A DNA stretch of 64,000 nt from Malacoraja senta (Eukaryota), in contig CM075994.1 of the NCBI GenBank assembly GCA_038087875.1, positions 8,372,001 through 8,436,000 of the forward strand, written 5' to 3'. Made by a program: the position numbers and the translations under genes. Below are positions 5,979-63,897 of this stretch, piece after piece. Within the stretch, counting starts at the first letter, position 1; the number at the start of each line of letters is the position of its first letter. The notes below the pieces were generated by a model. That model was not told where the DNA came from. It ran no database searches and was given only the letters and a program-made list of their open reading frames with translations.

Positions 5979-6106
5979 TATTTGTGAGACCCCCCCTATT
6001 GCGATGAGTGCCTTCTTCTGGAAAAATAGCAGCATTATTGATCTCTTGATGAGAGACTAAAAAGTCTAAAAAGACTCCAGAGTCTTTTCAGCCTTGCCCA
6101 CTTAAG

Positions 6107-35894: not shown

Positions 35895-36089
35895 ATCATC
35901 AGCAAGGGCAAGGTTGTGAAGATGGGCCACGTGCACAAGTCGGAGCTGACCAAACTCACTGTGCCACTGAGTTTGGAGATGGTCCCTTCCTTCCGCCTCG
36001 TCCTCTACTATTTCATCAGTGTCGGCGGCAAGACTGAGATGGTCGCTAACTCCGCCTGGATTGATGTGAAAGATGTCTGCGAGGCGGAG
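35895..36089 (+). CDS. C4: Complement C4-like, exon 13 (MG5/MG6)
   Basis: IISKGKVV...EMVPSFRLVLYYF...EMVANSAWIDVKDVCEAE; 195 nt, phase 0 to 0; TAG/GTACGA. Confidence 0.94.
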
Positions 36090-41444: not shown

Positions 41445-42300
41445 GGGGGATGTCAGTGGTGTTGAATGGGGGGATCAGTATGGGATGGATGAGGGGGGCA
41501 TCAGTACAGGATGAATGGTGGGATCAGTACAGGATGAAATGGGGGTAGACAAAAATGCTGGAGAAATTCAGCGGGTGAGGCAGCATCTATGGAGCGAAGG
41601 AAATAGGCAACGTTTCGAGTCGAGACCCTTCCTCAGACTGTTCCCCCCATTCTTCCTGAATGGGGGGATCAGTACAGGATGGATGTGGGGGGGATCAGCA
41701 AAGGATGAATGGGGGGATCAGTACAGGATGAATGGGTGGGGGTCAGGACAGTGTGGTTCGGAGGGTCTGTGCAGGATGAATGGAGATCATTACAGGATGA
41801 ATGAGGGGATCAGTATAGGATGAATGGGGGATCAGTACGGGATGCATAAGGGGGTCAGTACAGGATGCATGAACAGATCAGTACAGGATGCATGAGGGGA
41901 TCAGTACAGGATGAATGGGGGATCAGTACAGGGTAAATGAGGGGATCAGTACAGGATGAATAGGGGATCAGTAAAAGATGAATGGGGAGATCACTACAGG
42001 ATGGATGGTGGGATTGGTGCAGGGTAAATGGAGGGTGGGTCAGTACGGGATGAATGGGAGGATCAGTGCAGTATGAATGGGGGGAGAAGTGCAGGATGGA
42101 TTGGACGGGGGGTCAGTACAGGATGAATTAGGGGACCAGAGTAGGATGGATTGGGGGGCGGGGGGTGGCAGGAGAATCAATGCGAGGTGGGTAGGGTGAT
42201 GAATAGATTGGGGGGGGTAGATGAGGAGGGGAGCACAGGGGATGTCAGTGAGGACTGAATAGAGGAGGGAATGGGGATCAGTGCAGGATGGAGAGGAGGG
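41445..42300. repeat. Degenerate ~21-22 bp G-rich minisatellite (GGGGATCAGTACAGGATGAATG)
   Basis: Directly visible; interrupted by a Penelope-tail piece at about 41545..41645. Confidence 0.8.
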
Positions 42301-43450
42301 GTCCCAGGATAAGAGGGGTGGAGGGGGGCGTACAAGAGAGAGAGAGAGAGAGGGGGGAAGGGGCAGAGGAGGTGGGGAGGAAGGAAGGTCAGCGCTCCTC
42401 GGACAACATCGCCCGCTGCCTTGGCCGTCCCTGTTCAACGCCAAAGTGCTGCCGCCAAAGGGGGTGGCGGTTGGGATCTTATCGCCACCGCCTCCCCTCC
42501 TACGCCAGCCAATAGCAAGGTGCGGGGCCGAGCGGTGCAGCTCAAAGATCCTATAGCTATAGGATCTACTAGACTAAGTGGGACCCGTTGGGTCCCAGCA
42601 TCACACGGGAGGGCTGGTCACCCAACGCAATATTCCACCTCTCCACCAATTCCAATATTGCTCGCCAGGGGGGGGGGCTTTCTGTTGCACTAGTATGGGT
42701 GTTGTGGGCCGAAGGGTCTGGTTTCCAGGGGGCTAGTATAGACATTGTGGGCCGAATGGATTCTTGGGCTGGCAGATCAGTCACTGAGGGCTGGCAGTAC
42801 AGTCACTCGGACCTGCCAGGCTGGCAGCTGAGAAACTGCCAGAAATTCTGCCCAAAATAGGTGACAGACTGTGTGAGAGAGAAGGGTGAGAGGGTGGACT
42901 GAATGGGTTATTGGGCTGGCTGTACAGTCACTTACGGCTCGTGGGCTGGCAGTGCAGTCACTCACGCCTGGTACGCTGGCAGTTCATTCAGTCACCCCTC
43001 CTCCCTTCATCCCCCCACTCTGCTCCTTGCCATTCCCCTCCCCCCCACACATTCAGTCCATCTCCCCACAACCTCCCCCCATTCACTCTTAACGGCTCTC
43101 CCACAGAGAAGCCATTCCTGCCTATTAGGTTCCCGTTGTGATAAAGCAGGGATGAAAAGTGGAAAAAGGATTTATTAAAGTTTAAATTGTGAATTACTCT
43201 TAAAATATAAGAACAATTTAAATGTTAAAGATGAGAATTATTAAGTTCTTCCTTGTTGTGTCTCTTGTTGTGTTCTGCTGCTCACTGCCTCTTGATAGCT
43301 ATTTACTGTTGATAAAAAAAGAGACAATTTTAATATAGAGAGATTGAGCGGTTGTAATTTGTTGTAATTCTCAATCCTCTGGACTCACTGAAGAATTTGT
43401 GCAAAACATTTTTTGGAGGCGGGGGCTGTCGGGGTGGGGTGGGCGGTGGC

Positions 43451-43588
43451 TTCTTCTTCTTTTGTGTGGCGTGCACAGCCTAAAGTTGTAGGACAACTTG
43501 TTCTATTTGATCTTCTGTTTGTGCACGTCGAGTTGATTGCATTAGTCGAAACAGGGCGGACCACGTGAAGGTTGCAATCTTCCACCCC
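43451..43588 (-). mobile_element. 138-bp non-autonomous retroposon with (GAA)n tail and 5' HDV-like ribozyme (copy 1)
   Basis: 3' tail ...CACACAAAAGAAGAAGAA; 9-bp flanking repeat GGCGGTGGC / GGGGGTGGC; 5' end coincides with ribozyme G1. Confidence 0.75.
43535..43588 (-). ncRNA. Minimal HDV-like self-cleaving ribozyme (predicted)
   Basis: GGGGUGG AA GAUUGCA ACC UUCACGU GGU CCGCCCU G UUUCGA CUAA UGCAAUC: 7-bp P1 with G1.U, perfect 7-bp P2, 3-bp P3, L3 UUCACGU, J4/2 CUAA. Confidence 0.8.
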
Positions 43589-45787
43589 GGGGGTGGCAAA
43601 CGTCCTGCAGCCGAGGGAGGGGGGCGGCTTCAGGCGGGGGCTCTCGTGGGCTGATGAGGGAGGGGGACCTGCAGCGGGGGATGGGGGCGGCTTCAGGAGG
43701 GATGGCATCCCATAGCCAGGCGGAAGGCAGCGTCTTGTGGTGGGGATGTCAGTGGGGGGGGGGGGAGTGAGTTACCCACTCATGGCCTCTGGACTCACTG
43801 CCTTGGGACTAACTCATGGTCTCTGGACTGACTGACTGACTCACGGCCTCTGGACTGATAGAATGACTCACAGCTTGTGGACTGACTGACTAATACCCGA
43901 CTTCTGGAGTCACGTCTGACGTTTGTAAACTGAAAGCAGTAACATCCACATGGAGGAACAGCCTCTTCCCGACAGCCATTAGGCTATTAAACATAACGAA
44001 CTACGAAATAATATATTATTTGTACTATTTGTTATTTGTTGATCCCACACACACCCTCCATCTCACACAGACACTCAGACTCTCACACACACATACACAG
44101 ACACAGACTCTCAGACACACACGCAGACTCTCAGATACACACACAGACTCACACACACACACAGACACTCTCACACACATACATATACACACACATACAT
44201 ACACAGACACTCTCACACACACATATATACACACAGACACACACACTCACACACAGGCTCACACACAGACTCACACACAGACTCACAACCAATACTAAAA
44301 TACCAAGTAACTTCAGAACGTGGTGAACATACAGTGTGTAAACCGAATGATTCAAACGTTTAAAGCCTCCTGTAGAGGCGGCTGCTGCTGAAGCAAAAAC
44401 GTGCTTTAAATACCGTCCAACAAATACACTCACCATAGACAGAGCAGTAAGCTCTCTTTAATTATTCAACGACGTCTTCACTATGCCTTCTGCAGTCAGC
44501 GCCATCTTGCCACGAACCGGAAATTACGCAGTCAGTGCCATCTTGAAGCTAACTAGAAATGACATCATCAGCGCCATCTTGCCATTAAGCAGGTCACGGA
44601 ATGAGCGCCAATTTTGCAAATAAACAGTCCTGATCTAATACAATGTTTATTCACGCTTTATCCATCCGAAAACTGTTGCAACGGTTTAAAAAACGAAGCC
44701 AAGGCAAACAATTTGATAGCAGCCAATTGACAACCAAAATTCATTTTGTGAACACAACCCTTTTAAAAGGCGAGGCAAGCCATTTGGCAGCAGCCACTTG
44801 ACAACCAAAATTCATTTTGTGAACACAAACTTTTTAAAAGGCGAGGCAAACAATTTGGCAGCAGCCACTTGACAACCAAAATTCATTTTGTGAACACAAA
44901 CTAAGGCGAGGCAAACAATTTGGCAGCAGCCACTTGACAATCGGGACGGCTGGTCACCCAACGCAATATTCCACCTCTCCACCAATTCCAATATTGCTCG
45001 CCAGGGGGGGGCTTTCTGTTGCACTAGTATGGGTGTTGTGGGCCGAAGGGTCTGGTTTCCAGGGGGGGCTAGTATAGACATTGTGGGCCGAATGGATTCT
45101 TGGGCTGGCAGATCAGTCACTGAGGGCTGGCAGTACAGTCACTCGGACCTGCCAGGCTGGCAGCTGAGAAACTGCCAGAAATTCTGCCCAAAACAGGTGA
45201 CAGACTGTGTGAGCGAGAAGGGGGAGAGGGTGGACTGAATGGGTTATTGGTCTGGCAGTTCAGTCACTTACGGCTCGTGGGCTGGCAGTGCAGTCACTCA
45301 CGCCTGGTACGCTGGCAGTTCATTCAGTCACCCCTCCTCCCTTCATCCCCCCACTCTGCTCCTTGCCATTCCCCTCCCCCCCACACATTCAGTCCATCTC
45401 CCCACAACCTCCCCCCATTCACTCTTAACGGCTCTCCCACAGAGAAGCCATTCCTGCCTATTAGGTTCCCGTTGTGATAAAGCAGGGATGAAAAGTGGAA
45501 AAAGGATTTATTAAAGTTTAAATTGTGAATTACTCTTAAAATATAAGAACAATTTAAATGTTAAAGATGAGAATTATTAAGTTCTTCCTTGATTGTGTCT
45601 CTTGTTGTGTTCTGCTGCTCACTGCCTCTTGATAGCTATTTACTGTTGATAAAAAAAGAGACAATTTTAATATAGAGAGATTGAGCGGTTGTAATTTGTT
45701 GTAATTCTCAATCCTCTGGACTCACTGAAGAATTTGTGCAAAACATTTTTTGGAGGCGGGGGCTGTCGGGGTGGAGTGGGCGGTGGC

Positions 45788-45925
45788 TTCTTCTTCTTTT
45801 GTGTGGCGTGCACAGCCTAAAGTTGTGGGACAACTTGTTCTATTTGATCTTCTGTTTGTGCACGTCGAGTTGATTACATTATTCGAAACAGGGCGGACCA
45901 CGTGAAGGTTGCAATCTTCCACCCC
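45788..45925 (-). mobile_element. Copy 2 of the ribozyme-headed retroposon; predicted catalytic C replaced by A
   Basis: Offset 2337 from copy 1; J4/2 reads AUAA (position 45882) and P2 3' strand reads UGUAAUC. Confidence 0.75.
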
Positions 45926-47029
45926 GGGGGTGCCAAACGTCCTGCAGCCGAGGGAGGGGGACGGCTTCAGGCGGGGGCTCTCGTGGGCTGATGAGGGAGG
46001 GGGACCTGCAGCGGGGGATGGGGGCGGCTTCAGGAGGGATGGCATCCCATAGCCAGGCGGAAGGCAGCGTCTTGTGGTGGGGATGCCAGTGGGGGGGGAG
46101 AGTGAGTTACCCACTCATGGCCTCTGGACTCACTGCCTTGGGACTAACTCATGGTCTCTGGACTGACTGACTGACTCACGGCCTCTGGACTGATAGAATG
46201 ACTCACGGCTTGTGGACTGACTGACTAATACCCGACTTCTGGAGTCACGTCTGACTTTTGTAAACTGAAAGCAGTAACATCCACATGGAGGAACAGCCTC
46301 TTCCCGACAGCCATCAGGCTATTAAACATAACGTACTACGAAATAATATATTATTTGTACTATTTGTTATTTGTTGATCCCACACACACCCTCCATCTCA
46401 CACAGACACTCAGACTCTCACACACACATACACAGACACAGACTCTCAGACACACACGCAGACTCTCAGATACACACACAGACTCACACACACACACACA
46501 CACAGACACTCTCACACACATACATATACACACACATACATACACAGACACTCTCACACACAGATATATACACACAGACACACACACTCACACACAGGCT
46601 CACACACAGACTCACACACACTCACAACCAATACTAAAATACCAAGTAAATTCAGAACGTGGTGAACATACAGTGTGTAAACCGAATGATTCAAACGTTT
46701 AAAGCCTCCTGTAGAGGCGGCTGCTGCTGAAGCAAAAACGTGCTTTAAATACCGTCCAACAAACACACTCACCATAGACAGAGCAGTAAGCTCTCTTTAA
46801 TTATTCAACGACGTCTTCACTATGCCTTCTGCAGTCAGCGCCATCTTGCCACGAACCGGAAATTACGCAGTCAGTGCCATCTTGAAGCTAACTAGAAATG
46901 ACATCATCAGCGCCATCTTGCCATTAAACAGGTCACGGAATGAGCGCCAATTTTGCAAATAAACAGTCCTGATCTAATAAAATGTTTATTCACGCTTTAT
47001 CCATCCGAAAACTGTTGCAACGGTTTAAA

Positions 47030-50000
47030 AAACCAAGCCAAGGCAAACAATTTGATAGCAGCCACTTGACAACAAAAATTCATTTTGTGAACACAACCCT
47101 TTTAAAAGGCGAGGCAAGCCATTCGGCAGCAGCCACTTGACAACCAAAATTCATTTTGTGAACACAAACTTTTTAAAAGGCGAGGCAAACAATTTGGCAG
47201 CAGCCACTTGACAACCAAAATTCATTTTGAGAAAACAAACTTTTTAAAACGCGAGGCAAACAATTTGGCAGCAGCCACTTGATAACCAAAATTCATTTTG
47301 TGAACACAAACTTTTTAAAATGCGAGGCAAACAATTTGGCAGCGGCCACTTGACAACCAAAATTCATTTTGTGAACACAAACTTTTTAAAAGGCGAGGCA
47401 AACAATTTGGCAGCAGCCACTTGACAACCAAAATTCATTTTGTGAACACAAACGTTTTTAAAGGCGAGGCAAACAATTTGGCAGCAGCCACTTGACAACC
47501 AAAATTAATTTTGTGAACACAAACTTTTTAAAAGGCGAGGCAAACAATTTGACAGCAGCCACTTGACAAACAAAATTCATTTTGTGAACACAAACTAAGG
47601 CGAGGCAAACAATTTGGCAGCAGCCACTTGACAACCAAAATTCATTTTGTGAACACAAACTTTTTAAACGGCGACGCAACCAATTTGACAGCAGCCACTT
47701 GACAACCAAAATTCATTTTGTGAACACAAACTAAGGCGAGGCAAACAATTTGGCAGCAGCCACTTGACAACCACAATTCATTTTGTGAACACAAACTTTT
47801 AAAAGGGCGAGGCAAACAATTTGGCAGCAGCCACTTGACAACCAAAATTCATTTTGTGAACACAAATTAAGGCGAGGCAAATAATTTTGCATTAGCCACT
47901 TGACAACCAAAATTCATTTTGTGAACACAAACGTTTTAAAAGGCGAGGCAAACAATTTGGCAGCAGCCACTTGACAACCAAAATTCATTTTGTGAACACA
48001 AACTAAGGCGAGGCAAACAATTTGGCAGCAGCCACTTGAAAATCAAAATTCATTTTGTGAACACAAACTTTTTAAAAGGCGAGGCAAACAATTTGACAGC
48101 AGCCACTTGACAACCAAAATACATTTGTGAACACAAACTTTTTAAAAGGCGAGGCAAGGAATTTGGCAGCAGCCACATGACAACCAAAATGCATTTTGTG
48201 AACACAAACTTTTTAAAAGGCGACGCAAACAATTTGGCAGCAGCCACATGACAACCAAAATTCATTTTGTGAACACAAACTAAGGCGAGGCAAATAATTT
48301 TGCATTAGCCACTTGACAACCAAAATTCATTTTGTGAACACAAATGTTTTAAAAGGCGAGACAAACAATTTGGAAGCAGCCACTTGACAACCAAAATTCA
48401 TTTTGTGAACACAAACTAAGGCGAGGCAAACAATTTGGCAGCAGCCACTTGACAATCAAAATTCATTTTGTGAACACAAACTTTTTAAAAGGCGAGGCAA
48501 ACAATTTGACAGTAGCCACTTGACAACCAAAATACATTTTGTGAACACAAACTTTTTAGAAGGCGAGGCAAGCAATTTGGCAGCAGCCACATGACAACCA
48601 AAATGCATTTTGTGAACACAAACTAAGGCGAGGCAAATAATTTTGCATTAGCCACTTGACAACCAAAATTCATTTTGTGAACACAAACTTTTTAAAAGAC
48701 GAGGCAAACAATTTGGCAGCAGCCACTTGACAACCATAATTCATTTTGAGAACACAAACTTTTTAAAAGGCGAGGCAAACAATTTGGCAGCAGCCACTTG
48801 ATAACCAAAATTCATTTTGTGAACACAAACTTTTTAAAAGGCGAGGCAAACAATTTGGCAGCAGCCACTTGACAACCAAAATTCATTTTGTGAACACAAA
48901 CTTTTTAAAAGGCGAGGCAAACAATTTGGCAGCAGCCACTTGACAACCAAAATTCATTTTGTGAACACAAACTAAGGCGAGGCAAATAATTTTGCATTAG
49001 CCACTTGACAACCAAAATTCATTTTGTGAACACAAACGTTTCAAAAGGCGAGACAAACAATTTGGCAGCAGCCACTTGACAACCAAAATTCATTTTGTGA
49101 ACACCAACTAAGGCGAGGCAAACAATTTGGCAGCAGCCACTTGACAATCAAAATTCATTTTGTGAACACAAACTTTTTAAAAGGCGAGGCAAACAATTTG
49201 ACAGCAGCCACTTGCCAACCAAAATACATTTTGTGAACACAAACTTTTTAAAAGGCGAGGCAAGCAATTTGGCAGCAGCCAGATGACAACCAAAATGCAT
49301 TTTGTGAACACAAACTTTTTAAAAGGCGAGGCAAACAATTTGGCAGCAGCCACTTGACAACCAAAATTCATTTTGTGAACACAAACTAAGGCGAGGCAAA
49401 TAATTTTGCATTAGCCACTTGACAACCAAAATTCATTTTGTGAAAACAAACGTTTTAAAAGGCGAGACAAACAATTTGGAAGGAGCCACTTGGCAACCAA
49501 AATTCATTTTGAGAACACAAACTTTTTAAAAGGCGAGGCAAACAATTTGGCAGCAGCCACTTGATAACCAAAATTCATTTTGTGAACACAAACTTTTTAA
49601 AAGTCGAGGCAAGCAATTTGGCCGCAGCCACTTGACAACCAAAATACATTTTGTGAACACAAACTTTTTAAAAGGCGAGGCAAGCAATTTGGCAGCAGCC
49701 ACATGACAACCAAAATGGATTTTGTGAACACAAACTAAGGCGAGGCAAACAATTTGGCAGCAGCCACTTGACAATCAAAATTCATTTTGTGAACACAAAC
49801 TTTTTAAAAGGCGAGGCAAACAATTTTGCAGCAGCCACTTGACAACCAATCCATTTTGTGAACACAAACATTTTAAAAGGCGAGGCAAACAATTTGGCAG
49901 CAGCTACTCGACAACCAAACCATTTTGTGAACACAAACTTTTTAAAAGGCGAGGCAAACAATTTGGCAGCAGCCACTTGACAACCAAAATTCATTTTGTG

Positions 50001-53000
50001 AACACAAACTAAGGCGAGGCAAATAATTTTGCAGCAGCCTCTTGACAACCAAAATTCATTTTGTGAACACAAACTTTTTAAAAGGCGAGGCAAACAATTT
50101 GGCAGCAGCCACTTGACAACCAAAATTCATTTTGTGAACACAAACTTTTTAAAAGGCGAGGCAAACAATTTGGCAGCAGCCATTTGACAACCAATCCATT
50201 TTGTGAACACAAACTTTTTAAAAGGCGAGGCAAACAATTTGGCAGCAGCCACTTGACAACCAATCCATTTTGTGAACACAAACTTTTGAAAAGGCGTGGC
50301 AAACAATTTGGCAGCAGCCACTTGACTACCAAAATTCATTTTGTGAACACAAACTAAGACGAGGCAAATAATTTTGCAGCAGCCACTTGACAACCAAAAT
50401 TCATTTTGTGAACACAAACTTTTTAAAAGGCGAGGCAAACAATTTGGCAGCAGCCACTTGACAACCACAGTTCATTTTGTGAACACAAACTTTTAAAAAG
50501 GTGAGGCAAACAATTTGGCAGCAGCCACTTGACAACCAAAATTCATTTTGTGAACACAAACTTTTAAAAGGCGAGGCAAAGTATTTGGCAGGAGCCACTT
50601 GACAACCAGAATTCATTTTGAGAACACAAACTTTTTAAAAGGCGAGGCAAACAATTTGGCAGCAGCCACTTGACAACCAAAATTCATTTTGTGAACACAA
50701 ACTTTTTAAAAGGCGAGGCAAACAATTTGGCAGCAGCCACTTGACCACCAAAATTCATTTTGTGAAATCAAACTTTTTAAAAGGCGAGGCAAACAATTTG
50801 GCAGCAGCCCCCTAGTCCTCACCTTTCACCCCACCAGCCGTCACATACAACAAGTGATCCTCCGTCAGTTTCGCCACCTCCAACGTGACCCCACCACTCG
50901 CCACATCTTCCCATCTCCCCCTATGTCTGCCTTCCGCAAAGACCGCTCCCTCCGTAACTCCCTTGTCAATTCTTCCCTTCCCTCCCATACCACCCCCTCC
51001 CCTGGTACTTTCCCTTGCAACCGCAAGAGATGCAACACTTGTCCCTTCACTTCCCCCCTCCACTCCATTCCAGGACCCAAGCAGTCGTTCCAGGTGCGAC
51101 AGAGGTTCACCTGCATCTCCTCCAACCTCATCTATTGCATTCGCTGCTCTAGATGCCAGCTGATCTACATCGGTGAGACCAAGCGGAGGCTTGGCGATCG
51201 TTTCGCCGAACACCTCCGGTCGGTCCGCAATAACCAACCTGAACTCCCGGTGGCTCAGCACTTCAACTCCCCCTCCCATTCCGTATCTGACCTCTCTGTC
51301 CTGGGTCTCCTCCATGGCCACAGCGAGCAACACCGTAAATTGGAGGAAATGCACCTCATATTCCGCTTGGGCAGTCTACACCCTGGTGGCCTGAACGTTG
51401 AATTCTCCCAATTCTGCTAGCCCTGGCTGTCCCCTCCCCTTCATCAGCCATCTGGTTGTCTCCTCCCCTCCCCCAACCCTCGGGCTCCTCCTCCTCCTTT
51501 TCCTTTTTTCCTTTCTTCTCCCCACCCCCTATCAGTCTGAAGAAGGGTTTCGGCCCGAAACGTTACCTATTTCCTTCGCTCCATAGATGCTGCTGCACCC
51601 GCTGAGTTTCTCCAGCATTTTTGTGTACCTTCGATTTTCCAGCATCTGCAGTTCCTTCTTTAACAATTTGACAGCAGCCACTTGACAACCAAAATTCATT
51701 TTGTGAACACAAACTAAGGCGAAGCAAACGATTTGGCAGCAGCCACTTGACAATCAAAATTCATTTTGTGAACACAAACTTTTTAAAAGGCGAGGCAAAC
51801 AATTTGGCAGCAGCCACTTGACAACCAAAATTCATTTTGTGAACACAAACTAAGGCGAGGCAAACAATTTGGCAGCAGCCACTTGAAAATGAAAATTCAT
51901 TTTGTGAACACAAACTTTTTAAAAGGCGAGGCAAACAATTTGACAGCAGCCACTTGACAACCAAAATACATTTGTGAACACAAACTTTTTAAAAGGCGAG
52001 GCAAGGAATTTGGCAGCAGCCACATGACAACCAAAATGCATTTTGTGAACACAAACTTTTTAAAAGGTGACGCAAACAATTTGGCAGCAGCCACATGACA
52101 ACCAAAATTCATTTTGTGAACACAAACTAAGGCGAGGCAAATAATTCTGCATTAGCCACTTGACAACCAAAATTCATTTTGTGAACACAAACGTTTTAAA
52201 AGGCGAGACAAACAATTTGGAAGCAGCCACTTGACAACCAAAATTCATTTTGTGAACACAAACTAAGGCGAGGCAAACAATTTGGCAGCAGCCACTTGAC
52301 AATCAAAATTCATTTTGTGAACACAAACTTTTTAAAAGGCCAGGCAAACAATTTGACAGTAGCCACTTGACAACCAAAATACATTTTGTGAACACAAACT
52401 TTTTAGAAGGCGAGGCAAGCAATTTGGCAGCAGCCACATGACAACCAAAATGCATTTTGTGAACACAAACTAAGGCGAGGCAAATAATTTTGCATTAGCC
52501 ACTTGACAACCAAAATTCATTTTGTGAACACAAACTTTTTAAAAGACGAGGCAAACAATTTGGCAGCAGCCACTTGACAACCATAATTCATTTTGAGAAC
52601 ACAAACTTTTTAAAAGGCGAGGCAAACAATTTGGCAGCAGCCACTTGATAACCAAAATTCATTTTGTGAACACAAACTTTTTAAAAGGCGAGGCAAACAA
52701 TTTGGCAGCAGCCACTTGACAACCAAAATTCATTTTGTGAACACAAACTTTTTAAAAGGCGAGGCAAACAATTTGGCAGCAGCCACTTGACAACCAAAAT
52801 TCATTTTGTGAACACAAACTAAGGCGAGGCAAATAATTTTGCATTAGCCACTTGACAACCAAAATTCATTTTGTGAACACAAACGTTTCAAAAGGCGAGA
52901 CAAACAATTTGGCAGCAGCCACTTGACAACCAAATTTCATTTTGTGAACACCAACTAAGGCGAGGCAAACAATTTGGCAGCAGCCACTTGACAATCAAAA

Positions 53001-56000
53001 TTCATTTTGTGAACACAAACTTTTTAAAAGGCGAGGCAAACAATTTGACAGCAGCCACTTGCCAACCAAAATACATTTTGTGAACACAAACTTTTTAAAA
53101 GGCGAGGCAAGCAATTTGGCAGCAGCCAGATGACAACCAAAATGCATTTTGTGAACACAAACTTTTTAAAAGGCGAGGCAAACAATGTGGCAGCAGCCAC
53201 TTGACAACCAAAATTCATTTTGTGAACACAAACTAAGGCGAGGCAAATAATTTTGCATTAGCCACTTGACAACCAAAATTCATTTTGTGAAAACAAACGT
53301 TTTAAAAGGCGAGACAAACAATTTGGAAGGAGCCACTTGGCAACCAAAATTCATTTTGAGAACACAAACTTTTTAAAAGGCGAGGCAAACAATTTGGCAG
53401 CAGCCACTTGATAACCAAAATTCATTTTGTGAACACAAACTTTTTAAAAGTCGAGGCAAGCAATTTGGCCGCAGCCACTTGACAACCAAAATACATTTTG
53501 TGAACACAAACTTTTTAAAAGGCGAGGCAAGCAATTTGGCAGCAGCCACATGACAACCAAAATGGATTTTGTGAACACAAACTAAGGCGAGGCAAACAAT
53601 TTGGCAGCAGCCACTTGACAATCAAAATTCATTTTGTGAACACAAACTTTTTAAAAGGCGAGGCAAACAATTTTGCAGCAGCCACTTGACAACCAATCCA
53701 TTTTGTGAACACAAACATTTTAAAAGGCGAGGCAAACAATTTGGCAGCAGCTACTCGACAACCAAACCATTTTGTGAACACAAACTTTTTAAAAGGCGAG
53801 GCAAACAATTTGGCAGCAGCCACTTGACAACCAAAATTCATTTTGTGAACACAAACTAAGGCGAGGCAAATAATTTTGCAGCAGCCTCTTGACAACCAAA
53901 ATTCATTTTGTGAACACAAACTTTTTAAAAGGCGAGGCAAACAATTTGGCAGCAGCCACTTGACAACCAAAATTCATTTTGTGAACACAAACTTTTTAAA
54001 AGGTGAGGCAAACAATTTGGCAGCAGCCATTTGACAACCAATCCATTTTGTGAACACAAACTTTTTAAAAGGCGAGGCAAACAATTTGGCAGCAGCCACT
54101 TGACAACCAATCCATTTTGTGAACACAAACTTTTTAAAAGGCGAGGCAAACAATTTGGCAGCAGCCACTTGACTACCAAAATTCATTTTGTGAACACAAA
54201 CTAAGACGAGGCAAATAATTTTGCAGCAGCCACTTGACAACCAAAATTCATTTTGTGAACACAAACTTTTTAAAAGGCGAGGCAAACAATTTGGCAGCAG
54301 CCACTTGACAACCACAGTTCATTTTGTGAACACAAACTTTTAAAAAGGTGAGGCAAACAATTTGGCAGCAGCCACTTGACAACCAAAATTCATTTTGTGA
54401 ACACAAACTTTTTAAAAGGCGAGGCAAAGTATTTGGCAGGAGCCACTTGACAACCAGAATTCATTTTGAGAACACAAACTTTTTAAAAGGCGAGGCAAAC
54501 AATTTGGCAGCAGCCACTTGACAACCAAAATTCATTTTGTGAACACAAACTTTTTAAAAGGCGAAGCAAACAATTTGGCAGCAGCCACTTGACCACCAAA
54601 ATTCATTTTGTGAAATCAAACTTTTTAAAAGGCGAGGCAAACAATTTGGCAGCAGCCACTTGACAACCAAAATACATTTTGTGAACACCAACTAAGGCGA
54701 GGCATACAATTTGGCAGCAGCCACTTGACAATCAAAATTCATTTTGTGAAGACAAACTTTTTAAAAGGCGAGGCAAACAATTTGACAGCAGCCACTTGAC
54801 AACCAAAATTCATTTTGTGAACACAAACTAAGGCGAAGCAAACGATTTGGCAGCAGCCACTTGACAATCAAAATTCATTTTGTGAACACAAACTTTTTAA
54901 AAGGCGAGGCAAACAATTTGACAGCAGCCACTTGACAACCAAAATTCATTTTGTGAACACAAACTAAGGCGAGGCAAAGAATTTGGCAGCAGCCACTTGA
55001 CAATCAAAATTCATTTTGTGAACACAAACTTTTTAAAAGACGAGGCAAACGATTTGACAGCAGCCACTTGACAACCAAAATTCATTTTGTGAACACAGAC
55101 TTTTTAAAAGGCGTGGCAAACAATTTGGCAGCAGCCACTTGACAACCACAATTCATTTTGTGAACACAAACTTTTAAAAAGGTGAGGCAAACAATTTGGC
55201 AGCAGCCACTTGACAACCAAATTCATTTTGTGAACACAAAATTTTTAGAAGTCGAGGCAAGCAATTCGGCCGCAGCCACTTGACAACCAAAATTCATTTT
55301 GTGAACACAAACTTTTTAAAAGGCGAGGCAAACTATTTCGCAGGAGCCACTTGACAACCAAAATTCATTTTGAGAACACAAACTTTTTAAAAGGCGAGGC
55401 AAACAATTTGGCAGCAGCCACTTGACAACCAAAATTCATTTTGTGAACACAAACTTTTTAAAAGGCGAGGCAAACAATTTGGCAGCAGCCATTTGACAAC
55501 CACAATTCATTTGGTGAACACAAACTTTTAAAAAGGTGAGGCAAACAATTTGGCAGCAGCCACTTGACAACCAAAATTCATTTTGTGAACACAAACTTTT
55601 TAAAAGTCGAGGCAAGCAATTCGGCCGCAGCCACTTGACAACCAAAATTCATTTTGTGAACACAAACTTTTTAAAAGGCGAGGCAAACTATTTGGCAGGA
55701 GCCACTTGACAACCAAAATTCATTTTGAGAACACAAACTTTTTAAAAGGCGAGGCAAACAATTTGGCAGCAGCCACTAGACAACCAAAATTCATTTTGTG
55801 AACACAAACTTTTTAAAAGGCGAGGCAAACAATTTGGCAGCAGCCACTTGACAACCAAAATTCATTTTGTGAACTCAAACTTTTTAAAAGGCGAGGCAAA
55901 CAATTTGGCAGCAGCCACTTGACAACCAAAATTCATTTTGTGAACACCAACTAAGGCGAGGCAAACAATTTGGCAGCAGCCACTTGACAATCAAAATTCA

Positions 56001-58195
56001 TTTTGTGAAGACAAACTTTTTAAAAGGCGAGGCAAACAATTTGACAGCAGCCACTTGACAACCAAAATTCATTTTGTGAACACAAACTAAGGCGAAGCAA
56101 ACAATTCGGCAGCAGCCACTTGACAATCAAAATTCATTTTGTGAACACAAACTTTCTAAAAGGCGAGGCAAACAATTTGACAGCAGCCACTTGACAACCA
56201 AAGTTCATTTTGTGAACACAAACTAAGGCGAGGCAAAGAATTTGGCAGCAGCCACTTGACAACCACAATTCATTTTGTGAACACAAACTTTTAAAAAGGT
56301 GAGGCAAACAATTTGGCAGCAGCCACTTGACAACCAAAATTCATTTTGTGAACACAAACTTTTTTAAAAGTCGAGGCAAGCAATTCGGCCGCAGCCACTT
56401 GACAACCAAAATTCATTTTGTGAACACAAACTTTTTAAAAGGCGAGGCAAACAATTTGGCAGGAGCCACTTGACAACCAAAATTCATTTAGAGAACACAA
56501 ACTTTTTAAAAGGCGAGGCAAACAATTTGGCAGCAGCCACTTGACAACCAAAATTCATTTTGTGAACACAAACGTTTTAAAAGGCGAGGCAAACAATTTG
56601 GCAGCAGCCACTTGACAACCAAAATTCATTTTGTGAACTCAAACTTTTTAAAAGGCGAGGCAAACAATTTGGCAGCAGCCACTTGACAACCAAAATTCAT
56701 TTTGTGAACACCAACTAAGGCGAGGCAAACAATTTGGCAGCAGCCACTTGACAATCAAAATTCATTTTGTGAAGACAAACTTTTTAAAAGGCGAGGCAAA
56801 CAAGTTGACAGCAGCCACTTGACAATCAAAATTCATTTTGTGAACACAAACGTTTTAAAAGACGAGGCAAACGATTTGACAGCAGCCACTAGACAACCAA
56901 AATTCATTTTGTGAACACAAACTTTTTAAAAGGCGAGACAAGCAATTTGGCAGCAGCCACTTGACAACCAAAATTCATTTTGTGAACACAAAGTTTTTAA
57001 AGACGAGGCAAACAATTTGGCAGCAGCCATTTGACAACCAAAATTAATTTTGTGAATACAAACTTTTTAAAAGGCGAGGCAAACAATTTGGCAGCAGCCA
57101 TTTGACAACCACAATTCATTTGGTGAACACAAACTTTTAAAAAGGTGAGGCAAACAATTTGGCAGCAGCCACTTGACAACCAAAATTCATTTTGTGAACA
57201 CAAACTTTTTAAAAGTCGAGGCAAGCAATTCGGCCGCAGCCTCTTGACAACCAAAATTCATTTTGTGAACACAAACTTTTTAAAAGGCGAGGCAAACTAT
57301 TTGGCAGGAGCCACTTGACAACCAAAATTCATTTTGAGAACACAAACTTTTTAAAAGGCGAGGCAAACAATTTGGCAGCAGCCACTAGACAACCAAAATT
57401 CATTTTGTGAACACAAACTTTTTAAAAGGCGAGGCAAACAATTTGGCAGCAGCCACTTGACAACCAAAATTCATTTTGTGAACTCAAACTTTTTAAAAGG
57501 CGAGGTAAACAATTTGGCAGCAGCCACTTGACAACCAAAATTCATTTTGTGAACACCAACTAAGGCGAGGCAAACAATTTGGCAGCAGCCACTTGACAAT
57601 CAAAATTCATTTTGTGAAGACAAACTTTTTAAAAGGCGAGGCAAACAAGTTGACAGCAGCCACTTGACAACCAAAATTCATTTTGTGAACACAAACTAAG
57701 GCGAGGCAAATAATTTGGCAGCAGCCACTTGACAATCAAAATTCATTTTGTGAACACAAACTTTTTAAAAGACGAGGCAAACGATTTGACAGCAGCCACT
57801 TGACAACCAAAATTCATTTTGTGAACACAAACTTTTTAAAAGGTGAGGCAAGCAATTTGGCAGCAGCCACTTGACAACCAAAATTCATTTTTTGAACACA
57901 AACTTTTTAAAGGCGAGGCAAACAATTTGGCAGCAGCCACATGACAACCAAAATTCATTTTGTGAATACAAACTTTTTAAAAGGCGAGGCAAACAATTTG
58001 GCAGCAGCCACTTGACAACCAAAATTCATTTTGTTAAGACAATATTTTTTAAAGGCGAGGCAAACAATTTGGCAGCAGCCACTTGACAATCAAAATTCAT
58101 TTTGTGAACACAAACTTTTTAAAAGGCGAGGCAAACAATTTGGCAACAGCCACTTGACAACCAAAATTCATTTAGTGAACTAAGGCGAGGCAAAT
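47030..58195. repeat. Satellite array of 71-bp monomers and a 65-bp variant, roughly 145-150 copies; 3-4 more at about 44695..44940
   Basis: Consensus AACACAAACTTTTTAAAAGGCGAGGCAAACAATTTGGCAGCAGCCACTTGACAACCAAAATTCATTTTGTG; the variant lacks TTTTAA. Confidence 0.97.
50810..51661 (+). mobile_element. Penelope-like element, 5'-truncated, with open GIY-YIG endonuclease domain and 3' tail
   Basis: ORF 50854..51420: PCNRKRCNTC, NLIYCIRCSRCQLIYIGETKRRLGDRFAEH, VAQHF, GLN. Confidence 0.93.
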
Positions 58196-58527
58196 AATAG
58201 TAAGATTAAACGAGAACTTACCTAAGTTTGAAGTTTGATCTTTATTTTATGAGGAGTTACGTAGGTGATTACGTGAAGAACCCCGCCAGTGCGCCTGCGC
58301 GTCAATCTTCAAAGCAGCGGTGTGAAATCACAAAAAACAACAACCGAAGTAATATAGTCTCAGAATAAAACGAGTAATACAAGAACTTCCATCTGACCTT
58401 TATGATAGAGGGTAGGGTCGTGGCGGGCACGTAATCACCTACGTAGCTCCTCATAAAATAAAGATCAAACTTCAAACTTAGGTAAGTTCTCGTTTAATCT
58501 TACTATTTTACTTCGGAGTCACGTGAG
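58196..58527 (-). mobile_element. DIRS1-like 3' terminal fragment (internal complementary region, right ITR and extension)
   Basis: 80-bp inverted repeat 58196..58275 / 58428..58507 with 1 mismatch; similarity to the DIRS left end at about 5918..5978. Confidence 0.75.
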
Positions 58528-58955
58528 CAGCCACTTTACAGCCACTTTACAGCCACATCGAGGGGACTCACCGTGGAGTAGACGTGCGTTCAGTGTTATT
58601 CGCAGCTCAGAGAGCCGTGACCCTCTCGATTCCTGGGTCTGGCCGAGACTGAGTGAGGCACGACACTTCTGGGTTTTATGTCCCTCCCACCTGCCGCCAG
58701 CTGGGGCAGCAGAGAGAATGGCGAATGTTTAAAAAACAATAATCTTCCCCTGATTTTTCATCGATGGGAAAAATCCTCCTGTCCAGGAAGGCGGAGGGGG
58801 GCTCTGAACGAGGTGGCCAAAAATGACGGCAGTCGTTGGCGGCGTTCTTTCGGAAATCATAGCACAGCGGGCCAAAAGCAGTCAAGATCAGACTTTTAGT
58901 TATATAGATGGTGAAGCTGCTTCAGAAGCCGGAAGGAGACCTCCTTCTCCCTCTC

Positions 58956-58992
<37 letters not shown>

Positions 58993-58997
58993 CTCCC

Positions 58998-59160
58998 TCC
59001 CTCCTCCCGGCCTCGGCGTGCGAGAGGGGTTGTTTTGAAAGCGCCGTTGCCGGATTTGCAAGCAGCGGCCGTTATCAGGGCGATAGCGGCCGCTGCTTGC
59101 AAATCCGCCAAAGGCACTTTCAAAACAACCACTCTCACACGCCGAGGCTGGGAGGAGGGA
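58998..59160. repeat. GC-rich inverted repeat, 79-bp arms and 5-nt loop
   Basis: 58998..59076 vs 59082..59160, about 7 mismatches. Confidence 0.9.
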
Positions 59161-59834
59161 GGCCTCCTTCGGCCGGGCGGGGTGCGGGAGGAGGAGGCGG
59201 TGGAGCCGCTGTTGCCGCTGTTCGGGGCCCGTCACTCGCTCCGACCCTTCGTCACCACGCACCTAGTATCTTTGCCCCGCAATACAGCCGCCGCCGGCAC
59301 GAAACGTCACGTTCTTATTCGCCAGAGATGCTGCCTGACCCGCGGAGTTACTCCAGTTTTTAGTGTCTATCAGTATAGCCAGTATCTGCGTGCCAAGCCG
59401 GGCAAAATGACTCGGCGTTTAGGTTGCCCGGCGGCACTTAGGGTTCAGTGGCACCCGGCAACCGCTAATTTCGAGCCCTGACATGTCCCATCTCCACTAG
59501 TCCTCCCTACTTGCGTTTGGTCCATACCAACGGGGCCTGTTTCCATGTTGTAAGACTCTGTGAGTTGGCCAAATGGCATGTTCCCGAAACGTCGCCCATT
59601 CCTTCTCTCCAGAGATGCTGCCTGCCCCGCTGAGTTACTCCAGCATTTTGTGTCTTCGATTTTTACCAGCATCTGCAGTTCTTTCTAACTGTTTTCAACC
59701 CTTATGGTTCAGTGACTATAAAAGTGTGTTAATAGAAATAATATTTAAAAATCCCAAAATGCCTGCCTACCACTATCAAAGTCCAGAACATTCAGGATTA
59801 TTGAACTATTACTGTATGTAAAATACTCTATGAG

Positions 59835-60130
59835 GGTGGCAAGGTGGTGCAGCTGTAGAGTTGCTGCCTCACAGCGCCAGAGACCCGGATTCGATCCTTT
59901 GCGGGTGCTGTCTGTATGGAGTTTGTACGTTCTCCCCGTGACCTGCGCGGGCTTTCTCCGAGATCTTCGGATTCCTCCCACGCTCCAATGATGTACAGGC
60001 TTGCAGGTTAATTGGCTTGGTGTAAATGTAAAAATTGTCGCTGGTGTGTGTAGGATAGTTTTGGTGTGCGGGGATCGCTGGTCGGTCCGGACTTGGCAGG
60101 CAGAAGGGCCTGTTTCCGCCCTGTATCTCT
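59835..60130 (+). mobile_element. HE1-like V-SINE
   Basis: tRNA-like head and V core. Confidence 0.8.
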
Positions 60131-60324
60131 ACTTAGAAACATAGAAACATAGAAAATAGGCGCAGGAGTAGGCCATTCGGCCCTTCGAGCCAGCACCGCC
60201 ATTCAATATGATCACGTCTGATCATCCAGAATCAGTTTCCTGTTCCTGCTTTCTCCCCATATCCCTTGATTCCGTTAGCCCCAAGAGCTAAACTAAACTA
60301 AACTAAACTAAAGATATTTTCAAG

Positions 60325-60875
60325 ATGGAAAGGGTTCAGAAAAGATTTACGAGGGTGTTGCCAGGACTAGAGGGTGTGAGCTACATGCAGAGGTTGTGAC
60401 TCTATTCCATGGAGCGCAGGAGGATGAGGGGTGATCTTATGGAGGTGTATAAAATCATGAGAGGAATAAATCGGGTAGACGCACAGAGTCTCTTGCCCAG
60501 AGTAGGGTAATCGAGGACCAGAGGACATAGGTTAAATGTGAGGGCGGGAAAGATTTAATAGGAACCTGAGAGATAACTTTTTCACACAATGGGTGGTCGG
60601 TGTATGGAACAAGCTGCCAGAGAAGGTAGTTGAGGCTGGGACTATCCCAACGTTTAAGAAGCAGGCAGACAGGTACAGGTTTGGAGGGATATGGACCAAA
60701 CGCAGGCAGGTAGGACTTGTGTAGCTGGGACATGTTGGCCGGTGTGGGCAAGTTGGGCCAAAGGGCCTGTTTCCACGCTGTATCACTCTGTGACTTGTGT
60801 AGCTGGGACATATTGGCCGGTGTGGGCAAGTTGGGCCAAAGGGCCTGTTTCCACGCTGTATCACTCCATGACTCT
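60325..60875 (+). mobile_element. CR1-type LINE 3' fragment with a 78-bp tandem duplication of its tail
   Basis: Decayed ORF2 C-terminal sequence (ERVQKRFTR.., SRTRGH); tail repeated at about 60714 and 60792. Confidence 0.75.
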
Positions 60876-60934
60876 ATTCCAGGAAAAGGTGTAACATCAA
60901 TGCTGAGAATCTGCAATTTTCCTGTCCATTGTAG

Positions 60935-61084
60935 ATTGAGATCAACGTTGAGGGGAACGACTATTCTCCCGATAGTTGCGCATATATAACGATTCAAATG
61001 GGAGATGCAGGACAAGCATCTCTCGCGATGGTGGACAGCGCAATCTATATCCTCAACAGCAAGAATAAACTTACAACCAAACAG
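60935..61084 (+). CDS. C4: Complement C4-like, exon 14 (MG6/linker)
   Basis: IEINVEGNDYSPDSCAYITIQMGDAGQASLAMVDSAIYILNSKNKLTTKQ; 150 nt, phase 0 to 0; TAG/GTACGT; absent from the ORF track. Confidence 0.93.
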
Positions 61085-62544
61085 GTACGTTCAGTTTAGT
61101 TTAGTTTATTGTCACATGTACCGAGGTACAGTGAAAAGCTTTTGTTGCGTGCTAACCAGTCAGCGGAAAGGGAACAAATGATTACAATCAAGCCATTTAC
61201 AGTGTAAAGGTTCATGATAAAGGGAATAACGTTTAGTGCATGGCAAAGTCCGATCAAAGATAATCCGAGGGTCTCCAATGAGGTAGCAAGTAGTTCTGGA
61301 CTGCTCGCTGGATGTGGTAGGATGGTTCCATTGCCTGATAACACCTGGGAAGAAACTGTTCCTGAATGTGGAGGTGTGCGTTTTCACACTTCTCGATGGG
61401 AGAGGGGGAGAAGAGGGAGTGGCCGGGGTGCGACTGGTCCTTGATTATGCTGTTGGCCTTGCCGAGGCAGCATGAGGTGTAGATGGGGTCGATGAAAGGG
61501 TTTGCATGATGCTACGTTCTGTGCTGCGTTCACAATTTCTTGCGGTCTTGGACGGAGCAGTTCCCAAATCGTGCTGTGATGCATCCCAATATAAAATGCT
61601 TTCTACGGCGCGCATTTCGCCCATATCCCTCTCAACGTTCCGGTCCATCAATCTGCTCAAGTGTCATTTAAATGTTGTCGTAGTCCCAGCCTCAACTACC
61701 TCCTCCAGCAGCTCGTTACATACACCCATCTCCCTCATTGTGGAAAAGTTGCCCCTCAGATTCCTATTAAAACTTCCCCCCTTCACCTTAAACCTATGTC
61801 CTCTAGCCCTTGATTCCTGCACCTTGAGTAAAAGACTATCTATACCTCTCGTCATTTTATACACCTCTATAAGATCACCCCTCAGCCTCCTGCGCTCCAA
61901 GGAATAGAATCCTAGCCTGCCCAACCTCTCCCTATAGTTCAGGCCCTCACGCCCTGGCGGGATGGACATGCGGATGTACGGGCCAAGTTTATTTTAAACA
62001 CAGCGGGTGGTGGGTGTCTGGAACGCGCTTCCAGGGGTGGTGGTGGGAGATACAATAGTGGCGTTTAACAGGCTTTCAGATGGATTTGGAGGGAAATGGA
62101 TCGTGCTGGCAAATATCAATAGACAATAGGTGCACGAGTAGGCCATTCGGCCCTTCGAGCCAGCACCACCATTCAATGTGATCATGGCTGATCATCCACA
62201 ATCAGTACCCCGTTCCTGCCTTCTACCCATATCCCTTGACTCCGCTATCTTTAAGATATCTATCTATCTCTCTTGAAAGCATCTGGAGAACCGGCCTCCA
62301 CCGCCCTCTGAGGCAGAGAATTCCACACATTCACAACTCTCTGGGTGAAAACGTTTGTCCTCATCTCAGTTCTATATGACTTACCGCTTATTCTTAAACT
62401 GTGACCCCTGGTTCTGGACTCCCCCATCATTGGGAACTGTTTTGGCATCATGTTCGGCACAGACATTGCGGGCCGAAGGGCCTGTTGCTGTGCTGTATTT
62501 TCCACGTTCTCTGTTTATTCTAGAACATAGAACAGGGCGGCCAT

Positions 62545-63370: not shown

Positions 63371-63897
63371 GAAACGTCTCCTATCCATGTTCTCCAGAGA
63401 TGCGGCCTGACCCTCTGAATTACTGCAGCACTGTGAAACGTCTTCTATCCATGTTCTCCAGAGATGCGGCCTGACCCCCTGAGTTACTCCAGCACTCTGT
63501 GAGACGTCACCTATCCATGTTCTCCACAGATGTTGCCTGGCCCGTTGATTTACTCCAGCACTGTGTGAGACGTCTCCTATCCATGTTCTCCAGAGATGCT
63601 GCCTGACCCGCTGAGTTACTCCAGCACTCTGTGAGACGTCTCCTATCCATGTTCTCCAGAGATGCGGCCTGACCCCCTGAGTTACTCCAGCACTCTGTGA
63701 GACGTCTCCTATCCATGTTCTCCAGAGATGCTGCCTGACCCGCTGAGTTACTCCAGCACTCTGTGAGACGTCTCCTATCCATGTTCTCCAGAGATGCTGC
63801 CTGACCCCCTGAGTTACTGCAGCACTCTGTGACACGTCACCTATCCATGTTCTCCAGAGATGCTGCCTGACCCGTTGATTTACTCCAGCACTTTGTG
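63371..63897. repeat. Eight tandem copies of a 66-bp unit derived from the Penelope-type tail
   Basis: Unit starts at about 63371, 63435, 63501, 63567, 63633, 63699, 63765 and 63831. Confidence 0.9.

What the first reader, a model, noticed from the sequence alone, without database searches (positions are those of the whole stretch)
47030..58195. Satellite DNA apparently expanded from an internal Helitron repeat
Seen: about 10 kb of 71/65-bp monomers lie wholly inside the Helitron. The adjacent non-satellite Helitron sequence carries the same core (CAGCCACTTTACAGCCACTTTACAGCCAC, about 58528..58556), and edge monomers are more diverged than central ones. Each monomer has a dyad TTTGTG-AA-CACAAA and several A/T tracts. 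Established: Helitron-internal tandem repeats have seeded satellites in insects. Inference: the same process in a vertebrate, within a gene whose exons are intact.
Basis: partly seen in the sequence, partly recalled or inferred. Interest (0 to 1): 0.7.

Follow-up and report, generated by a model that had tools for sequence, protein, structure and literature searches.

The report
Satellite-swollen Helitron in skate complement intron
A non-coding rolling-circle transposon in an intron of a skate complement C4-like gene contains a 10-kb block of about 148 tandem copies of a 71-base repeat, a pattern already known from flies, oysters and frogs, so this is a good new example and not a new mechanism.

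Summary
The array is real: 47041-58198, 146 complete monomers (98 of 71 bp, 33 of 65 bp), 3.6% from consensus. It lies between canonical Helitron ends on the minus strand (5' A|TCTATATAA at 58908; hairpin plus CTAG|T at 42569), in a 24.8-kb intron of a skate C4-like gene.

- The 'shared core' at 58526 is not an independent relic. It is the array's own right-hand end, cut off by a 327-bp insertion into the last monomer.
- Edge monomers are not further from consensus (rho 0.06); they only carry more private variants.
- The dyad is at chance level (24% of shuffles).

Additional structure: a 2.34-kb duplicate of the Helitron body holds only 3.5 monomers; a 3.1-kb block was duplicated (0.39% divergence); a Penelope-like fragment then inserted. 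Contigs of 4 of 4 other organisms hold both monomer and Helitron 5' part, with rough monomer:Helitron depth ratios from 2 to 57.

Best reading: a Helitron-borne repeat expanded, at least partly, at this locus. Whether it arose inside the Helitron or was captured is unresolved; no genome was held. Known kind, already reported in vertebrates (Xenopus, zebrafish).

The parts
42569..58908 (-). Composite non-autonomous Helitron with canonical (Helitron1-type) ends, 16,340 bp, inserted at an A|T dinucleotide
   Evidence: The only 5' A|TCTATATA motif and the only hairpin+CTRR|T end found in the 64-kb window, same strand, correct order. No Pfam hit in 16 of the 25 stop-to-stop frames of at least 50 aa overlapping the unique body that were scanned.
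42569..42597 (-). 3' terminus: 8-bp GC-rich stem with 3-nt loop (42579-42597), 6 nt, then CTAG and host T
   Evidence: (I11)
42606..44695 (-). Helitron body copy A: patchwork of 22/30-, 27- and 36-bp minisatellites, a CA microsatellite and a short piece also found at 32849-32895
44696..44940 (+). Short array of 3.5 monomers of the same 71/65-bp repeat at the head of body copy A
   Evidence: Its edge monomer shares four diagnostic variants with the edge monomer of the long array.
44942..47040 (-). Helitron body copy B, lacking the last 37 bp including hairpin and CTAG; 42606-44940 versus 44942-47285 differ by 32 substitutions in 2329 aligned bases (1.37%)
47041..58198 (+). Main tandem array, 146 complete monomers plus broken ones (about 148), 71-bp unit with a 65-bp deletion variant
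47934..54895 (+). Tandem duplication of a block of about 3.1 kb inside the array; 11 substitutions and one 1-bp gap over 2847 aligned bases (0.39%)
   Evidence: The block end point is inferred from the monomer variant order.
50810..51661 (+). 5'-truncated Penelope-like retroelement fragment inserted into the first copy of the duplicated block, with loss of about 120 bp of array
   Evidence: GIY-YIG hit E 1.7e-4, 22.2 bits against a cutoff of 22.6; related copies elsewhere in the window. The label Penelope-like is from recalled knowledge of GIY-YIG retroelements.
58199..58525 (.). 327-bp insertion with 80-bp inverted arms (58196-58275 and 58428-58507) splitting the last monomer; related to the 5' end of a degraded RT-bearing element at about 3570-5990 (DIRS-like by recalled resemblance)
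   Evidence: (81% over 52 bp). Separate high-depth profile in 4 of 4 runs.
58526..58556 (+).
   Evidence: 17 of 19 identical to consensus, 0 of 500 shuffles; TRF
58557..58908 (-). Helitron 5' segment ending in the TC-TATATAA terminus; multi-copy in other organisms
   Evidence: contigs of runs X1, X2, X15 and X18 align in this segment; depth falls beyond the terminus in 4 of 4 runs
35895..36089 (+). Complement C4-like exon upstream of the 24,845-bp host intron
   Evidence: tblastn 91-96% to skate proteins P0002-P0004; splice sites
60935..61084 (+). Complement C4-like exon downstream of the host intron, in frame with the upstream exon

Best explanation
This is one copy of an abundant non-autonomous canonical Helitron family of skates that carries a 71-bp tandem repeat about 350 bp from its 5' end. 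Shown: the anatomy, the terminal signals, the intronic position, and that the array grew by block duplications of 0.4-3.1 kb that are as young as or younger than the 2.34-kb body duplication. Inferred steps: (1) a RepHel transposase supplied in trans inserted the element at A|T; (2) a head-to-tail dimer or terminator bypass, followed by a deletion joining a monomer to a point 37 bp before the 3' end, gave the second body copy with 3.5 monomers; (3) unequal crossover or replication slippage expanded the other array to about 148 monomers, leaving the edge monomer outside homogenisation; (4) a Penelope-like fragment and a 327-bp inverted-repeat element inserted later. The monomer probably arose within the Helitron, since one part of it is 1.5 copies of the element's 11-bp unit, but capture of a short pre-existing repeat followed by the same expansion fits almost as well. 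The array is most likely neutral passenger DNA that is spliced out with the intron.
For: Canonical ends as defined for Helraiser and Heli1Xen1. Array joins Helitron sequence at both ends in monomer phase once the 327-bp insertion is removed. The same element body occurs with 3.5 and with about 148 monomers at one locus, 1.37% apart. Block duplications at lags 3847, 1609, 764, 845 and 1259 bp with 10/2632, 3/647, 4/443, 6/465 and 12/636 mismatches. Of 33 variants seen at least 4 times, 9 occur only in the left 100 monomers and none only in the right 46, consistent with local spread. In 4 of 4 other organisms both monomer and Helitron 5' segment are high-depth; of the 9 listed contig pieces in the Helitron segment, 6 begin at 58539-58550, in or beside the 11-bp unit. 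Rough monomer:Helitron depth ratios are 1.9 (X15), 57 (X1), 25 (X2) and 15 (X18) using the median of five Helitron sites, as expected for an internal repeat of about two copies per element that expanded in some lineages.
Against: No second independent Helitron copy with its monomer junction was seen: no genome held, collection scans empty, and junction joints were crowded out by SINE matches. The depth figures come from contigs, the tool states they are no copy number, and they vary 50-fold among the five Helitron sites within one run. About half of the monomer has no significant match in the flanks. The 3' end pattern alone occurs in 12 of 30 simulated windows and its family link to the 5' end was not tested. 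Monomer diversity (6.5% pairwise) exceeds the body duplication age (1.37%), so variants predate it or were imported from other arrays.
Confidence: 0.62

Rival explanations
1. Capture or invasion: an independent skate satellite existed first, and a stretch of it was captured as filler DNA by the Helitron or recombined into this copy through the shared 11-bp-unit homology, then expanded locally.
For: Monomer depth far exceeds Helitron depth in 3 of 4 runs, compatible with large free arrays. About half of the monomer is absent from the flanks. The body is a patchwork of unrelated repeats. The filler model is favoured for insect Helitrons in passages of PMC7492417.
Against: In run X15 the ratio is only about 2, leaving little room for free satellite if the figure means anything. 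Both array ends join in monomer phase, and the edge monomer is conserved between the two body copies.
Confidence: 0.24
2. The ends are not one element: a 5' fragment of one Helitron and the 3' body of another flank a satellite block inside a nest of insertions, so the 16-kb unit never moved as a whole.
For: The region is a nest of at least five insertions. Only the 5' segment was shown to be multi-copy. A 3'-type end arises by chance in 12 of 30 simulated windows.
Against: Exactly one 5' motif and one 3' end in 64 kb, same strand, correct order, both with the A|T target base. A palindrome at the left junction continues for two bases across the inferred empty site (sequence; weak).
Confidence: 0.09
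3. The array length is partly an assembly artefact, for example false duplication of the 3.1-kb block or the 2.34-kb body.
For: Near-identical blocks (0.39%); the window has a 200-N gap; no run was shown to be this genome's own sample and no listed piece spans the array.
Against: The blocks differ by 11 scattered substitutions, and only one copy has the retroelement insertion and its deletion. The body copies differ by 32 substitutions and 7 gaps. 90 of 146 monomers are distinct.
Confidence: 0.05

Closest known systems
Xenopus Heli2Xen / Helitron-N2_XT and zebrafish Helitron-N1_DR (PMC12001565, passages)
   Same: Vertebrate non-autonomous Helitrons whose length is mostly an internal tandem array (166-bp unit in Heli2Xen)
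   Different: Those are described as Helitron2-related, with reported arrays of two to seven repeats; here the ends are canonical TC..CTAG and the array has about 148 units of 71 bp
Pacific oyster Cg170/HindIII (CgiSat01) in Cg_HINE Helentrons (PMC8268682 and PMC7492417, passages)
   Same: Tandem array between conserved element ends, variable monomer number, unresolved origin-versus-capture question
   Different: Average about six monomers, longest element-associated array 89 monomers; invertebrate; Helentron-type ends
Drosophila DINE-TR1 central tandem repeats (Dias et al. 2015; seen only as a citation and a table row in PMC9659126 and PMC12628747)
   Same: Internal repeat of a Helitron-class element expanding to satellite-like arrays
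   Different: There free satellite arrays are reported; here free arrays were not tested
Canonical Helitron1 elements Helraiser/Helibat1 and Heli1Xen1 (PMC4778049 and PMC12001565, passages)
   Same: 5' TC with TATATAA-like start, 3' hairpin about 11 nt before the end, CTAG, A|T target
   Different: No RepHel coding sequence found here; duplicated body lacking the terminator; large internal array

Membership tests
Canonical non-autonomous Helitron (Helitron1 type) | 5' terminus TC, AT-rich start | tested here: met
   A|TCTATATAA at 58908, minus strand; sole occurrence in window, 4 of 30 simulated windows have one
Canonical non-autonomous Helitron (Helitron1 type) | 3' terminus CTRR preceded by a GC-rich hairpin about 11 nt from the end | tested here: met
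   8-bp stem ending 10 nt before the 3' end, CTAG at 42572-42569; pattern alone is not rare (12 of 30 simulations)
Canonical non-autonomous Helitron (Helitron1 type) | Insertion between A and T without target duplication | tested here: met
   Flanking bases A42568 and T58909 on the plus strand; no orthologous empty site was available
Canonical non-autonomous Helitron (Helitron1 type) | Dispersed multi-copy family in which both ends co-occur | tested here: inconclusive
Canonical non-autonomous Helitron (Helitron1 type) | Autonomous RepHel partner with matching ends | not testable with these tools
   No genome held; no Pfam hit in 16 body frames scanned
Helitron2 / Helentron (HINE, DINE-1) | T|T target with subterminal inverted repeats instead of TC..CTAG ends (definition recalled) | tested here: not met
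   Ends are TC..CTAG at A|T
Satellite DNA | Long head-to-tail array of similar monomers with homogenisation and higher-order blocks | tested here: met
Satellite DNA | High genomic abundance | tested here: inconclusive
   Summed contig depth at a monomer site 1.7e5 to 1.9e6 against 16-35 for exon contigs in three runs; not a copy number and not shown for this species
Satellite DNA | Free-standing heterochromatic or centromeric arrays | not testable with these tools
   Needs assembly or FISH
Helitron-derived satellite (DINE-TR1 type) | Monomer present as low-copy internal repeat in most element copies and older there than in free arrays | tested here: inconclusive
   One locus with 3.5 and about 148 monomers; ratio near 2 in one run; junctions in other copies not seen

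The most novel reading that the evidence does not exclude
The 71-bp unit was born inside a canonical skate Helitron, persists at about two copies per element in some species, and has escaped to become a major free satellite in others (roughly 30-fold spread in monomer:Helitron ratio). That would give a vertebrate series of species in which every stage of the transposon-to-satellite transition can be dated, with this intronic array as a length-polymorphic intermediate that may affect C4-like gene output.
Probability: 0.3. Interest if true: 0.5.

Novelty: new member of a known kind. Interest (0 to 1): 0.27.

Why it matters
Helitron-borne tandem arrays are established, including in vertebrates, so the mechanism is not new. 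The value is as a case study. I found no description for cartilaginous fishes in seven literature searches (repeat databases such as Repbase or Dfam could not be searched). The ends are canonical, not Helitron2-type. The locus keeps a readable order of events (body duplication, block duplications, two later insertions). If the cross-species ratios hold, skates offer a direct test of origin versus capture, which the oyster literature leaves open.

Tried and rejected
No whole genome was held, so genome-wide mapping was impossible.

Exact-pattern scans found nothing: a Helitron motif in metagenome contigs and a monomer motif in metagenome, viral and prokaryote-genome contigs. This is expected for skate DNA and uninformative.

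The single read-laying run (27) used contigs of four organisms, none shown to be this species. Monomer-to-Helitron joints were not among the 15 joints shown of 9652. None of the joints shown skips the 327-bp insertion.

Rejected:
- Functional dyad or hairpin: 24% by chance; 3.3 versus 5.4 substitutions per column and 1.08 versus 1.24 distinct variants per column inside versus outside the dyad; folding z near 0.
- General edge divergence from consensus.
- A degenerate monomer extending into the left flank (985 of 2000 shuffles).
- RNA family: 0 Rfam matches at gathering score in the window.
- Coding remnants in the body: 0 hits in 16 of 25 frames scanned.
- TRF's 159.7 copies: inflated by spanning the retroelement insertion.

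One search used the wrong reading frame and found nothing; repeated in frame. Earlier-findings look-ups by place, by sequence and by the longer word list returned nothing.
Full report
Host context. The window is skate-like DNA. An exon at 62978-63103 matches human complement C4 best among solved structures (E 2.7e-6; C5 1.9e-4; C3 2.8e-3) and is 93-95% identical to two Amblyraja radiata C4-like proteins and 89-90% to two Leucoraja erinacea proteins (4 hits among 6 candidates). tblastn with these proteins gives collinear plus-strand exons from 15930 to 63106, and a further exon at 13971-14162 weakly matches the start of C4 (E 0.019). One expected exon (residues 81-107 of P0004) was not found; a 200-N gap at 20509-20708 lies in that interval. 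The intron holding the finding runs 36090-60934 (24,845 bp) with GT..AG ends and frame continuity. So 'exons intact' holds for the flanking exons; the rest of the gene lies beyond the window and expression was not tested.

The array. TRF reports period 71 over 47041-58180. Anchor parsing gives 146 complete monomers in the main array (98 of 71 bp, 33 of 65, 8 of 69, 6 of 70, 1 of 72), 3.56% from consensus and 6.5% pairwise, 90 of 146 distinct. It is interrupted at 50810-51661 by a truncated element with a GIY-YIG hit just under the Pfam cutoff (22.2 versus 22.6 bits), which I label Penelope-like from recalled knowledge. A block of about 3.1 kb is duplicated with 11 substitutions in 2847 bases; only the first copy carries the retroelement, so that insertion is younger still. 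Four smaller block repeats show 0.5-1.9% mismatch.

The Helitron. On the minus strand the window has exactly one A|TCTATATA start (58908) and one GC-rich hairpin followed by CTAG|T (42569), in the right order around the array. These are the hallmarks given for Helraiser (5'-TC, CTAG-3', palindrome 11 nt from the end, AT target; PMC4778049, passages) and Heli1Xen1 (TATATAAA start; PMC12001565, passages). Taken alone the 3' pattern is weak (12 of 30 simulated windows) and the 5' motif moderately rare (4 of 30). Contigs from 4 of 4 other organisms cover the 5' segment at high depth, and depth falls beyond the terminus in all four (for example X1 94,184 to 3,161, then 4,455; part of the first lower bin is a skipped simple repeat). 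No Pfam domain was found in 16 of 25 body frames scanned. The body is present twice: 42606-44940 and 44942-47285 differ by 1.37%. The copy next to the long array lacks the last 37 bp with the hairpin, and the other copy begins with only 3.5 monomers. This fits a dimer or terminator bypass followed by deletion (inference; compare the model of truncated tandem Helitrons summarised in PMC12628747, passages).

First, the core: 58526-58544 matches the monomer at 17 of 19 positions, unmatched by 500 shuffles, so homology is real. But the last monomer stops at 58198 and resumes at 58526 five bases later in phase. The 327 bp between carry 80-bp inverted arms and resemble the 5' end of a degraded RT-bearing element at about 3570-5990 (81% over 52 bp; DIRS-like by recalled resemblance, tyrosine recombinase not tested). 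The core is therefore the array's own end. It still carries some information: the monomer contains 1.5 copies of the 11-bp unit, and 6 of the 9 listed contig pieces in the Helitron segment begin at 58539-58550, so at least part of that unit belongs to the element in other species. Second, edges: no trend in distance from consensus (rho 0.056, p 0.50; rho -0.013 after removing the duplicate block). Private variants are enriched at the edges (p 0.005), partly because of the first monomer, whose four diagnostic changes are shared by the first monomer of the short array. This is the usual escape of terminal units from homogenisation (established knowledge, recalled) and does not indicate origin. 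Third, the dyad: exact in 111 of 146 monomers, expected by chance in 24% of shuffles, with no folding excess.

Other organisms. The run search listed 22 runs, 20 holding part of 58040-61100, from 10 studies and 8 organism codes; the best shared 0.55 of the words. I laid 4 of the 22. Monomer depth relative to the median of five Helitron sites was 1.9, 57, 25 and 15 in X15, X1, X2 and X18. Relative to X15, Helitron sites ranged 0.26-1.78 and two flanking retroposon sites 0.25-0.81, while the monomer site was 6.7-11 times higher. The tool states that such depths are not copy numbers, the five Helitron sites differ 50-fold within a run, and the 85% likeness cut could hide diverged monomers, so this is a hint only. 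It fits an internal repeat that expanded in some lineages, and equally a free satellite in the high-ratio species.

Mechanism. Most likely (0.62) a Helitron-borne repeat was carried into the intron and expanded, at least in part afterwards, by unequal exchange or slippage. Block duplications are shown; the recombination mechanism, trans-mobilisation and birth of the monomer inside the element are inferred. Capture of a pre-existing satellite (0.24), a chimera of two elements (0.09) and assembly inflation (0.05) are the rivals.

Comparison and novelty. Helitron-class elements with internal arrays are described in Drosophila (DINE-TR1; seen only as citation and table row), oyster (average about six monomers, longest element-associated array 89; PMC8268682, passages; origin versus capture discussed in PMC7492417, passages) and vertebrates (Xenopus Heli2Xen with 166-bp minisatellites, zebrafish Helitron-N1_DR, bats mentioned; PMC12001565, passages). 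Seven searches (listings only) showed no paper on a Helitron-borne satellite in cartilaginous fishes. I read no supplements, subscription papers are mostly missing from the library, and repeat libraries could not be searched, so the family may already be catalogued. Earlier scan notes on similar elements in other genomes (8 shown of 9) also filed them as known kinds; I did not check them. Verdict: real, well-preserved new member of a known kind; interest 0.27.

Noticed in passing
window 38071-59480: The whole region sits in a 21.4-kb DNA-transposon-like shell with terminal inverted repeats (8 bp perfect) and an imperfect 5-bp target duplication; its two flanks join into one retroposon tail that is intact elsewhere in the window.
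   Followed up: partly
window 63374-63897: Eight tandem copies of a 66-bp unit (91% matches) derived from the very common short retroposon tail scattered through the window; a second small transposon-derived array in the same gene.
   Followed up: no
window 41463-42158 and 58909-59270: A 23-bp minisatellite left of the Helitron and an 81-bp inverted repeat (58996-59162) right of it may be halves of an older element into which the Helitron inserted; a 22-bp palindrome (42546-42567) abuts the insertion site.
   Followed up: no
window 3570-5990 (minus strand): Degraded retroelement with reverse transcriptase pieces (Pfam RVT_1 E 9e-9), DIRS-like by recalled resemblance; its 5' end is related to the 327-bp insertion in the last monomer.
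   Followed up: partly
window 20509-20708: 200-N assembly gap; one expected C4-like exon was not found in this intron and probably lies in the gap.
   Followed up: partly
window 60876-61100: Exon contigs in the four runs differ from the window by about 5-10%, with several contigs or very high depth in X15 and X18, and one search returned two C4-like proteins per skate species: the gene seems multi-copy in skates.
   Followed up: no
window 27485-27608: This exon is one codon shorter than in the three skate proteins compared; the frame is kept.
   Followed up: no
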